64,000 nucleotides of DNA, from the NCBI RefSeq assembly GCF_013315695.1, contig NZ_CP054353.1. One strand, 5' to 3'. This document shows, one piece after another, positions 46,130-51,383 of the stretch. The stretch comes from Escherichia coli. Its GTDB lineage: Bacteria; Pseudomonadota; Gammaproteobacteria; Enterobacterales; Enterobacteriaceae. Every line of letters begins with the position of its first letter. Within the stretch, counting starts at the first letter, position 1. Position numbers and translations under genes: made by a program. The notes below the pieces were generated by a model. That model searched no databases and had not been told where the DNA came from. It saw nothing but the letters and a program-made list of their open reading frames with translations.

Positions 46130-46453
46130 TTGCGTATTCTTTTTGTCTGTTCGCTATTGTTACTTTCTGGATGCAGCCATATGGCTAACGATAGCTGGAG
46201 CGGGCAGGATAAAGCTCAACACTTTATCGCCTCGGCGATGCTTTCCGCCGCCGGAAATGAATATTCACAGCATCAGGGGATGAGCCGGGATCGCAGTGCC
46301 ATGTTTGGATTGATGTTCTCTGTCAGTTTGGGGGCGTCAAAAGAGCTTTGGGATAGCCGCCCCGAAGGGAGCGGCTGGAGCTGGAAGGATTTGGCCTGGG
46401 ATGTCGCAGGTGCAAGCACCGGCTATACCGTCTGGCAACTGACCCGTCACTAA
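46130..46453 (+). CDS. yfiM: lipoprotein YfiM
   Basis: Probable TTG start at 46130 with GGAGG 8 nt upstream (107 aa); lipobox LLLSGC. The track ORF (from 46109) begins inside the pssA terminator hairpin. Confidence 0.7.
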
Positions 46454-47748
46454 AGACGCATCCCCTTCCCTTTGCGATGTAGCATCAAAGAAACCAGAAA
46501 CGCCACCACGGCCATCAAGGTCACATACCAGAAGAAGGCTGTTTCCATTCCTATTGATTTCAGCGACAACGCTACGTACTCCGCCGAACCACCAAATATA
46601 GCATTAGCGACCGCATATGACAGACCAACGCCTAATGCGCGAACCTGTGCCGGGAACATCTCAGCCTTCAGTATTCCACTGATTGATGTATAAAAACTCA
46701 CTATCAGCAGGGCACACATCACCAGACCAAAAGCGGCATAAGGCGAGGAAACGTTTTGCAATGCTGAGAGAATAGGAACGGTAAAAATGGCTGCCAGCGA
46801 ACCGAAACATAACATTGAGGTACGGCGACCAATCTTATCCGACAGCGCGCCAATGAGTGGTTGAATAAGCATGAATACAAACAATGCGGCAGTCATAATG
46901 CCACTCGCCACGTTGGCATGCATTCCCGCAGTATTTACCAGATACTTCTGCATATAAGTGGTGAAGGTATAGAAACAAAGGGAGCCCGCAGCGGTAAAAC
47001 CGAGAACCATGATGAATGCACGGCGATTGCGCCATAATCCTTTCAGAGATCCAGCTTCTTTTAAAGCGCGCGTTTCTTGTTGTGAAGTTTCATCTAACTG
47101 ACGACGTAACCACAACGCCACAACAGCTAACACAGCTCCTAACGCGAAAGGAATACGCCATCCCCACTCTCTGAGTGCAGCGTCTTCCATGGTGTGTTGT
47201 AAAACCACGACAACCAGTAGAGCTAGCAGTTGCCCGCCGATCAACGTCACATACTGAAATGATGCGTAAAAACCTTTGCGCCCTTCAACGGCAACTTCAC
47301 TCATATAGGTGGCGCTGGTGCCATATTCTCCGCCAACGGATAATCCCTGGAATAAACGAGCAAGAAGCAATAATGCCGGAGCCCAGGTACCGATTGTTTC
47401 GTAGCCTGGCAAACAGGCGATAACCAGTGAGCCGAAACACATCATACACACCGATAATAGCATCGATTTTTTGCGACCATGTTTATCGGCTATGCGGCCA
47501 AATAGCCAACCGCCTATTGGGCGCATCAGAAATCCCGCAGCAAAAACACCTGCTGTTTGTAGTAGTTGAGTCGTCGTGTTCCCGGAAGGGAAGAAGATGT
47601 GGGCAAAGTAGAGTGAACAGAACGAGTAGACATAGAAATCGAACCACTCGACCAGATTACCTGAAGAGGCCCCCACAATCGCCCAAATGCGGCGACGAGT
47701 ATCACTACTTGTCAGTTTTCTGTCTGCCGTTACAGTACTTTCAGCCAT
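46450..47748 (-). CDS. kgtP: alpha-ketoglutarate:proton symporter (MFS)
   Basis: 432 aa, 12-TM MFS transporter. Confidence 0.95.
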
Positions 47749-47927
47749 GCCATTATGTCTCCTGCCGTAATCCGATGCTTTTGTCGGTCACTTTTGTTTA
47801 TTTCTTTTGGTAAAGAAAATGTTATGCATTTGTTGCGTATCATTATGCAACCTTAACCATGAATTTAGTTAGCAGGAAAATGGTTATTGAGGAGCTTAAG
47901 GATAAATTTCTGGTAAGGAGGACACGT

Positions 47928-47990
47928 ATGGAAGTAGGCAAGTTGGGGAAACCGTATCCGTTGCTGAATCTGGCATATGTGGGAGTATAA
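47928..47990 (+). CDS. candidate small ORF (20 aa: MEVGKLGKPYPLLNLAYVGV)
   Basis: ATG at 47928 preceded by a near-perfect Shine-Dalgarno AAGGAGG (47915..47921) with 6-nt spacing; TAA stop at 47988; lies between kgtP and the rRNA operon terminator. Not a gene I recognise. Confidence 0.25.
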   Translation: MEVGKLGKPYPLLNLAYVGV

Positions 47991-48030
47991 GACGCGCAGC
48001 ATCGCATCAGGCATTTTTTTCTGCACCAAT

Positions 48031-48062
48031 GCAAAAAGGCCATCCTGACGGATGGCCTTCTG
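48031..48062 (-). terminator. rRNA operon terminator
   Basis: Minus-strand hairpin AAGGCCATCCGTCAGGATGGCCTT followed by a T-run, immediately downstream of the 5S gene. Confidence 0.65.
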
Positions 48063-48071
48063 CTTAATTTG

Positions 48072-48191
48072 ATGCCTGGCAGTTCCCTACTCTCGCATGG
48101 GGAGACCCCACACTACCATCGGCGCTACGGCGTTTCACTTCTGAGTTCGGCATGGGGTCAGGTGGGACCACCGCGCTAAGGCCGCCAGGCA
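48072..48191 (-). rRNA. rrf: 5S ribosomal RNA
   Basis: 120 nt whose reverse complement is TGCCTGGCGGC...GGAACTGCCAGGCAT, the canonical E. coli 5S sequence. Confidence 0.97.
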
Positions 48192-51190: not shown

Positions 51191-51383
51191 CACAACCCGA
51201 AGATGTTTCTTTCGACTCATCATCGTGTTGCGAAAATTTGAGAGACTCACGAACAACTTTCGTTGTTCAGTGTTTCAATTTTCAGCTTGATCCAGATTTT
51301 TAAAGAGCAAATATCTTAAACATGACTCGTAAGTCATCTTTAACGATATTAAGGTCGGTGACTTTCACTCACAAACCAGCAAG

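What the first reader, a model, noticed from the sequence alone, without database searches (positions are those of the whole stretch)
47915..47990. 20-codon ORF with a near-perfect Shine-Dalgarno between kgtP and the rRNA operon terminator
AAGGAGG sits 6 nt upstream of an ATG and is followed by a 20-codon ORF (MEVGKLGKPYPLLNLAYVGV) ending a few dozen bases before the rRNA terminator, transcribed divergently from kgtP. A translation signal of this quality is rarely accidental. It may be a small protein, or a leader or regulatory uORF tied to the kgtP promoter region.
Basis: seen in the sequence. Interest (0 to 1): 0.4.

Follow-up and report, generated by a model that had tools for sequence, protein, structure and literature searches.

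The report
Known small gene yfiS, a yjaB relic
The 20-codon reading frame is real and is the already catalogued E. coli small-protein gene yfiS, shown by others to be translated; most of it is a leftover copy of the tail end of the acetyltransferase gene yjaB, and it cannot be a leader for kgtP.

Summary
AAGGAGG (47915-47921) lies 6 nt before an ATG (47928) that opens a 20-codon ORF, MEVGKLGKPYPLLNLAYVGV, ending at 47990. It runs divergently from kgtP and ends 45 nt before the rrnG terminator hairpin.

It is not new. E. coli K-12 RefSeq annotates the identical protein at the same place as yfiS (b4783), and UniProt lists it as YFIS_ECOLI. A benchmarking paper lists yfiS among the small ORFs that Weaver et al. 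(mBio 2019) found by initiation-site ribosome profiling and confirmed by epitope tag and western blot.

New detail found here:
- Codons 6-19 are 40/41 nt identical to the 3' end of yjaB, a GNAT lysine acetyltransferase gene beside rrnE. YfiS matches the last 21 YjaB residues at 17/21.
- Diverged copies of the same fragment sit at this locus in E. albertii, a cryptic Escherichia lineage and Citrobacter amalonaticus, with different or missing start and stop signals.
- E. coli carries three allele classes: 3819, 1209 and 338 of 5426 genomes. At least seven residues vary and one class has a 3-codon deletion.
- The stop codon lies in a truncated REP element.

No gene follows on the same strand, so it is not a leader or uORF. 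Best reading: a translated, weakly constrained gene relic. Verdict: already known, low interest.

The parts
47915..47921 (+). Shine-Dalgarno sequence AAGGAGG, 6 nt before the start codon
   Evidence: Read directly. Predicted unpaired in a local RNA fold. Retained as AAGGAGG or GAGGAG in all 13 E. coli genomes sampled. Degenerate in E. albertii.
47928..47990 (+). yfiS ORF: 20 codons plus TAA, encoding MEVGKLGKPYPLLNLAYVGV
   Evidence: The protein is identical to K-12 yfiS b4783 at NC_000913.3 2725925-2725987. The exact sequence is held in UniRef as YFIS_ECOLI.
47943..47983 (+). Core homologous to the 3' end of yjaB (yfiS codons 6-19, LGKPYPLLNLAYVG)
   Evidence: 40/41 nt identical to yjaB, and 41/41 to yjaB of some strains. 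BLASTP against YjaB residues 127-147 gives 17/21 identities, E = 1e-10.
47987..48012 (-). Truncated REP-like element that supplies the TAA stop codon
   Evidence: GCCTGATGCGATGC at 47999-48012 on the minus strand matches the REP-type motif. The motif occurs 5 times in the window against 0.43 expected. Other alleles and E. albertii carry a full-length REP further downstream. The REP consensus used is from established knowledge.
48031..48062 (-). rrnG intrinsic terminator hairpin (GGCCATCC-loop-GGATGGCC followed by a U-run on the minus strand)
   Evidence: RNA folds of both strands (z = -3.3 and -5.0). It lies immediately 3' of the 5S rRNA. It probably also ends the yfiS transcript, which is an inference.
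48074..48189 (-). 5S rRNA gene (rrfG), convergent with yfiS
   Evidence: Rfam RF00001, 93.2 bits. K-12 annotation names it rrfG.
46450..47748 (-). kgtP (alpha-ketoglutarate permease), divergent neighbour

Best explanation
The feature is yfiS, a small gene already annotated in E. coli K-12. A strong, unstructured Shine-Dalgarno sequence and an ATG drive translation of a 20-residue peptide from a transcript that runs away from kgtP. That transcript most likely ends at the bidirectional rrnG terminator hairpin. The ORF is built on a short relic of the 3' end of a yjaB-type GNAT acetyltransferase gene lodged between kgtP and rrnG. YfiS residues 6-19 are the last residues of YjaB. The start signals lie in sequence that no longer shows detectable homology to yjaB. 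In most E. coli the stop codon is supplied by a truncated REP element. I commit to the reading that this is a young, Escherichia-restricted and weakly constrained translated relic (a proto-gene). Its similarity to yjaB has probably been refreshed by ectopic gene conversion in the K-12-like lineages. It is not a leader or uORF for kgtP. Shown: identity with yfiS, homology to yjaB, allele variability, and absence of a downstream gene. From the literature: translation in K-12. Inferred: weak constraint or no sequence-specific function, gene conversion, and the terminator used.
For: Identity. K-12 annotates the identical ORF as yfiS in the same kgtP-rrfG gap. UniRef holds it as YFIS_ECOLI. yfiS appears in the table of western-blot-validated small ORFs of Weaver et al. 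2019, with a TIS read count of 33 and DeepRibo rank 61. The method is described.

Relic origin. A 41-nt core is 97.6-100% identical to the yjaB 3' end. BLASTP gives 17/21 identities, E = 1e-10. Some automated annotations already name the 43-aa in-frame extension 'Acetyltransferase, GNAT family' or 'hypothetical acetyltransferase YjaB'. At the same locus C. amalonaticus carries RVTGRAEVDDPGRPYPLLHLRYQGA, 72% identical to YjaB residues 123-147 and without a Shine-Dalgarno sequence or ATG. Its homology extends 33 nt further upstream (p < 0.0005). Both yjaB and the relic are convergent with the 3' end of an rrn operon.

Weak constraint. Three allele classes exist in E. coli: 3819, 1209 and 338 of 5426 genomes. 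Replacements occur at residues 4, 5, 9, 10, 11, 19 and 20, and one class has a 3-codon deletion. A sister Escherichia lineage has a frameshift giving MEVGKSRRRIHC. E. albertii has lost the stop codon and has a weak Shine-Dalgarno sequence. ORF divergence between the window and B2 strains is 12.7-17.5%, against 1.8-2.5% for adjacent kgtP.

Gene conversion. At three of the six core sites where the window allele and the B2 allele differ, the outgroups carry the B2 state, and the K-12-type state at all six matches yjaB.

Not a leader. Only minus-strand rRNA genes lie downstream.
Against: Variable sites in the sampled 20-codon alleles are 7 synonymous and 6 nonsynonymous, a crude pN/pS near 0.3. 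This could mean some purifying selection on the peptide. It is confounded because conversion from the selected gene yjaB would import synonymous differences. A Shine-Dalgarno sequence, ATG and an open frame of 17-20 codons are kept in all three allele classes, which cover about 99% of complete E. coli genomes. That would also fit a maintained function. The strain sample was chosen by divergence in this very segment, so the diversity comparison is biased upward. DNA homology to yjaB upstream of codon 6 is not significant in E. coli (p about 0.6), so the origin of the start signals is unresolved. No promoter was identified directly upstream. Translation was shown in K-12 and not in the strain of this window, although Shine-Dalgarno sequence, spacer and protein are identical.
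Confidence: 0.7

Rival explanations
1. YfiS is a functional small protein under selection. For example, the peptide reproduces the last strands of YjaB and could bind YjaB or another GNAT enzyme, or some other partner, and modulate it.
For: The product was detected as a tagged protein in K-12. Shine-Dalgarno sequence, ATG and an open frame are retained in about 99% of complete E. coli genomes across three allele classes. Crude pN/pS is about 0.3. The sequence is nearly identical to the YjaB C-terminus.
Against: Seven of 20 residues are polymorphic within one species, and 6% of genomes carry a 3-codon deletion. There is a frameshift in a sister lineage and stop-codon loss in E. albertii. No Pfam domain is found. 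The excess of synonymous changes can be explained by conversion from yjaB. The held literature reports no phenotype or partner.
Confidence: 0.15
2. The act of transcribing or translating yfiS matters, not the peptide. For example, divergent transcription could influence the kgtP promoter, or convergent transcription and translation could shield against read-through from rrnG.
For: The ORF sits about 180 nt from the kgtP start in a well-conserved intergenic region. It ends 45 nt before a hairpin that folds on both strands. The start signals are better conserved than the peptide.
Against: No plus-strand promoter was found between kgtP and the ORF. Most other Enterobacteriaceae keep the kgtP-rrn arrangement without any such ORF, so it is not needed for kgtP or rrn expression. 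There is no experimental support.
Confidence: 0.1
3. It is a leader peptide or uORF controlling kgtP or another downstream gene.
For: Only its proximity to the kgtP promoter region.
Against: The ORF is on the opposite strand to kgtP and points away from it. Downstream on its own strand there are only antisense rRNA genes. A cis-acting leader needs a downstream gene on the same transcript.
Confidence: 0.02

Closest known systems
yfiS (b4783, YP_010051193.1, UniProt YFIS_ECOLI) of E. coli K-12
   Same: The 20-residue protein, the Shine-Dalgarno sequence, the 6-nt spacer and the position between kgtP and rrfG are all identical.
   Different: Two synonymous differences from K-12 (GTA vs GTG at codon 3, AAA vs AAG at codon 8). 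NCBI's automatic PGAP annotation of other strains does not call the gene.
YjaB, peptidyl-lysine N-acetyltransferase (GNAT family, PDB 2kcw)
   Same: YfiS residues 2-20 align with the last residues of YjaB, 17/21 identities when the preceding Arg codon is included. The DNA core is 40/41 identical. Both genes are convergent with the 3' end of an rrn operon.
   Different: YfiS covers only the final 20 of 147 residues. It has no GNAT domain and no acetyl-CoA-binding motif, so it cannot be an acetyltransferase.
Other small ORFs found by initiation-site ribosome profiling in E. coli (Weaver et al. 2019; Meydan et al. 2019)
   Same: Intergenic, under 50 codons, detected by stalled initiation complexes and epitope tagging, function unknown.
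   Different: The Weaver et al. preprint reported an identifiable motif only for YnfU. For YfiS an origin can be named: a fragment of yjaB.
Leader peptides and uORFs of attenuation-type control
   Same: Short ORF with a strong ribosome-binding site in an intergenic region.
   Different: There is no downstream gene on the same strand and no alternative terminator/antiterminator pairing tied to it.

Membership tests
yfiS (E. coli K-12 b4783) | Same protein sequence | tested here: met
   The translations of window 47928-47990 and of K-12 2725925-2725987 are both MEVGKLGKPYPLLNLAYVGV.
yfiS (E. coli K-12 b4783) | Same genomic position and orientation: between kgtP and rrfG, divergent from kgtP | tested here: met
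   K-12 annotation table and window ORF and Rfam maps.
yfiS (E. coli K-12 b4783) | Translated in vivo | not testable with these tools
   Literature only. yfiS is listed among the western-blot-validated small ORFs of Weaver et al. 2019. The original tables and figures were not available.
GNAT acetyltransferase (YjaB family) | GNAT domain recognised by Pfam (Acetyltransf_1/7/10) | tested here: not met
   YjaB hits PF13673, PF13508 and PF00583. The 20-aa and 43-aa products hit nothing at E <= 1.
GNAT acetyltransferase (YjaB family) | Sequence homology to a family member | tested here: met
   BLASTP gives 17/21 identities to YjaB 127-147, E = 1e-10. The DNA core is 40/41 identical. The homology covers the C-terminal tail only, so this is a fragment and not a member.
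Leader peptide / regulatory uORF | A regulated gene downstream on the same strand and transcript | tested here: not met
   The next features downstream on the plus strand are the antisense of 5S, 23S and 16S rRNA. kgtP is upstream on the other strand.
REP (repetitive extragenic palindrome) element | Match to the REP consensus with both palindrome arms | tested here: inconclusive
   The 5' arm and centre match (GCCTGATGCGATGCTGCGCGTCTTAT). The 3' arm is replaced by the end of the ORF. Other alleles show a complete REP. The consensus was taken from established knowledge, not from a curated model.

The most novel reading that the evidence does not exclude
yfiS is a proto-gene caught in the act. 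A roughly 80-nt relic of a yjaB-type acetyltransferase gene acquired its own ribosome-binding site and start codon in Escherichia. It borrowed a stop codon from a REP element and is kept similar to yjaB by ectopic gene conversion. Its peptide, a copy of the C-terminal strands of YjaB, acts on YjaB or a related GNAT enzyme, for example by strand mimicry.
Probability: 0.05. Interest if true: 0.5.

Novelty: already known. Interest (0 to 1): 0.15.

Why it matters
As a finding it only rediscovers an annotated and experimentally validated small gene, so it adds nothing to the catalogue. It does show that a reader without tools can pick out real small ORFs. The modest added value is the evolutionary account. 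YfiS is one of the few profiling-derived small proteins for which a concrete origin can be named: the tail of yjaB. Its start and stop signals came from other sequence, and it varies strongly within the species. That makes it a tractable example for asking whether translated small ORFs are functional genes or translated relics.

Tried and rejected
- The Weaver et al. preprint text never names yfiS, kgtP or the peptide, and no supplements are held. The mBio version and the EcoSal small-proteome review are not held. The literature link therefore rests on the RiboReport table.
- A literature search with substring matching was useless because it matched 'crayfish' and 'jellyfish'. A search for yjaB together with kgtP found nothing relevant.
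- The consensus promoter scan found no sigma-70 promoter on the plus strand between kgtP and the ORF. The only hit is a 9/12 match inside the kgtP 5' end. It also failed to flag the obvious rrn terminator, which was then shown by folding.
- Rfam found no RNA family in the intergenic region, only sub-threshold chance hits.
- My first REP pattern, with an extra N, matched nothing.
- I tested whether homology to yjaB extends upstream through the Shine-Dalgarno sequence and ATG. It is not significant in E. coli or E. albertii (p = 0.59 and 0.80). I therefore dropped the claim that the Shine-Dalgarno sequence evolved from yjaB codons 123-126.
- The 43-codon in-frame extension from ATG 47859 was rejected as the real gene. 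It has no Shine-Dalgarno sequence, its ATG is ACG or GTG in some lineages, and B2 strains have an in-frame stop before the 20-codon start.
- The single-sequence AlphaFold model of YjaB was too poor to use (pLDDT 42).
- No full-length GNAT gene lies next to kgtP in any of the 80 species sampled.

Full report
**1. Observation**

The sequence is as described.
- AAGGAGG occupies 47915-47921, followed by the spacer ACACGT.
- ATG at 47928 opens 20 sense codons, MEVGKLGKPYPLLNLAYVGV, ending with TAA at 47988-47990.
- kgtP is on the minus strand at 46450-47748, so the ORF is divergent from it.
- The 5S, 23S and 16S rRNA genes of an rrn operon lie on the minus strand from 48074 onward.
- The rrn terminator hairpin (48036-48059) folds strongly on both strands.

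AAGGAGG-N4-9-ATG is expected 0.61 times per shuffled window, and 46% of shuffles contain one. The motif alone therefore proves nothing.

**2. What it is**

RefSeq for E. coli K-12 MG1655 annotates a CDS named yfiS (b4783, YP_010051193.1) at 2725925-2725987, between kgtP and rrfG. Its translation is identical to the window ORF. Shine-Dalgarno sequence and spacer are also identical, and the coding DNA differs at only two synonymous positions. The exact sequence is held in UniRef as YFIS_ECOLI. Genomes annotated automatically by PGAP do not call the gene, which is probably why it looked unannotated.

RiboReport (PMC8921622) lists yfiS among the western-blot-validated small ORFs of its reference 20. 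That reference is Weaver, Mohammad, Buskirk and Storz, mBio 2019. The preprint of that paper describes the method: Onc112 and retapamulin initiation-site profiling, followed by chromosomal SPA tagging and immunoblotting. I could not see the original tables or blots.

**3. Origin: a relic of yjaB**

The E. coli-wide search showed a second hit in each genome, inside yjaB.
- yjaB encodes a GNAT peptidyl-lysine acetyltransferase. It lies two genes from rrfE and is convergent with rrnE.
- Its product ends ...TGRSEVDDLGKPYPLLNLAYVGA.
- YfiS aligns to YjaB 127-147 with 17/21 identities, E = 1e-10.
- Window 47943-47983 is 40/41 identical to yjaB at the DNA level, and 41/41 to the yjaB of some strains.
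- Some automated annotations have labelled the 43-codon in-frame extension 'Acetyltransferase, GNAT family' or 'hypothetical acetyltransferase YjaB'. The Weaver preprint states that only YnfU had an identifiable motif. I found no paper discussing the link.
- The 20-aa and 43-aa products have no Pfam domain. The fragment cannot be an enzyme.

**4. Other species**

A scan of one genome per species with KgtP returned 80 loci. Most contigs end a few hundred bases upstream of kgtP, at the rrn operon, so the arrangement is widespread. Only four kinds of locus carry the fragment.
- E. coli carries the ORF described here.
- E. albertii has MKVEKLWKSYSLLNLACTDF..., with a degenerate Shine-Dalgarno sequence and no stop before the contig end.
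- A cryptic Escherichia lineage (L007) has an intact Shine-Dalgarno sequence and ATG, but a frameshift gives MEVGKSRRRIHC.
- Citrobacter amalonaticus has RVTGRAEVDDPGRPYPLLHLRYQGA, with no Shine-Dalgarno sequence or ATG.

In C. amalonaticus the homology to yjaB extends 33 nt further upstream (p < 0.0005). In E. coli and E. albertii the sequence upstream of codon 6, including Shine-Dalgarno sequence and ATG, shows no significant DNA similarity to yjaB (p = 0.59 and 0.80). The other Citrobacter, Enterobacter, Klebsiella and related species sampled have only REP elements and terminators there. None has a full-length GNAT gene beside kgtP. The start signals therefore appear to be an Escherichia novelty placed on an older gene fragment.

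**5. Stop codon and 3' flank**

In K-12-like alleles the TAA lies inside a truncated REP-like element, GCCTGATGCGATGCTGCGCGTCTTAT on the minus strand. The motif is enriched in the window, 5 matches against 0.43 expected. Other alleles differ at this end.
- LF82 ends VGA-TAG, like yjaB, and is followed by an IS110-family element.
- The 17-codon alleles end in different sequence before a full REP.
- E. albertii reads through a full REP.

**6. Variation within E. coli**

Allele-specific searches of 5426 complete genomes gave three classes.

| Allele class | Peptide | Genomes |
|---|---|---|
| K-12-like, 20 codons | MEVGKLGKPYPLLNLAYVGV and close variants | 3819 |
| B2-type | MEVGNLGKTYSLLNLAYVG(V/A), with a 2-nt shorter spacer | 1209 |
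| 17 codons | MEV(G/S)KLGKPYSLAYVEE | 338 |

- Sampled sequences show replacements at residues 4, 5, 9, 10, 11, 19 and 20.
- The ORF differs by 12.7-17.5% between the window and B2 strains. The first 399 nt of kgtP differ by 1.8-2.5%, or 4.5-7.5% at third codon positions.
- Nucleotide diversity is 0.093 in the ORF and 0.034 in the upstream intergenic region. The strains were chosen by divergence in this segment, so that comparison is biased.
- Variable sites in the 20-codon alleles are 7 synonymous and 6 nonsynonymous. This would suggest some constraint. It is confounded because the K-12-type state at all six core sites that distinguish it from the B2 type equals the yjaB state, and the outgroups share the B2 state at three of those sites.
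- That pattern fits ectopic gene conversion from yjaB into the relic in the non-B2 lineages. It would also explain the high divergence. This is an inference and has not been formally tested.

**7. Mechanism and function**

The Shine-Dalgarno sequence is predicted to be unpaired, and the region has no significant structure (z = -1.0). No sigma-70 consensus promoter lies between kgtP and the ORF. The only match is TTGTCA-16-TACAGT at 47709-47736, inside the kgtP 5' end. No Rfam family is present. Because nothing lies downstream on the plus strand, a leader or uORF role is excluded by the gene arrangement.

My best reading (confidence 0.7) is a translated, young and weakly constrained relic with no demonstrated function. 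The rivals are:
- a functional peptide, possibly acting on YjaB-like enzymes (0.15);
- a role for the act of transcription or translation near the kgtP promoter or the rrnG terminator (0.1);
- a leader or uORF (0.02).

**8. Verdict**

The relic origin and the allele spectrum are modest additions. Interest is low.

Noticed in passing
window 47833-47852 and 47810-47832; L001 2331-2350: The kgtP-yfiS intergenic region holds a conserved palindrome, GTTGCATATCATTATGCAAC, which is perfect in K-12 and has one mismatch in the window. Its minus-strand half reads as a TTGCAT -35 box, 18 nt from a -10 box that is TATAAT in K-12 but CATAAC in this window. This is probably the kgtP promoter or operator, with a strain polymorphism in the -10 box.
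   Followed up: partly
L004 752-1042 (LF82); L089 and L090 from 358 (RIVM_C037794, strain 4069): Some E. coli strains carry insertion sequences between yfiS and rrfG. LF82 has a frameshifted IS110-family element. The two 17-codon-allele strains have IS1397/IS3-family elements. All sit at or next to the REP element.
   Followed up: no
window 47427-47990 (plus strand); proteins P0006-P0010, P0014-P0017: In O157:H7 and other genomes, 187- and 205-aa 'hypothetical proteins' are annotated. They fuse an ORF antisense to the 5' end of kgtP with the yfiS frame, probably through an indel in the T-run near 47800. These look like annotation artefacts.
   Followed up: partly
window 47709-47736 (plus strand): This is the only sigma-70-like match on the plus strand, TTGTCA-16-TACAGT, 9 of 12. 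It lies antisense within the first codons of kgtP. It could be the source of the yfiS transcript but is no better than chance (0.9 expected).
   Followed up: no
L094 151-198 (ST131 yjaB) compared with L095 (K-12 yjaB): yjaB of ST131 ends GCA TAT GTG GGG GTG TAG (AYVGV), like YfiS. K-12 yjaB ends GCG TAT GTG GGG GCG TAG (AYVGA). This may be a trace of sequence exchange in the opposite direction, from yfiS to yjaB.
   Followed up: no
L007, L011, L012, L015 upstream flanks compared with window 48031-48073: The rrn operon next to kgtP ends differently in different lineages. The window and K-12 have a single hairpin directly after the 5S gene. A cryptic Escherichia lineage and several Citrobacter and Enterobacter species have a longer two-hairpin terminator region that, from memory, resembles rrnB T1-T2.
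   Followed up: no
window 51197-51305 (minus strand): Rfam StyR-44 match (123.9 bits) just upstream of the 23S rRNA within the rrn operon. This is an ordinary feature of enterobacterial rrn operons.
   Followed up: no
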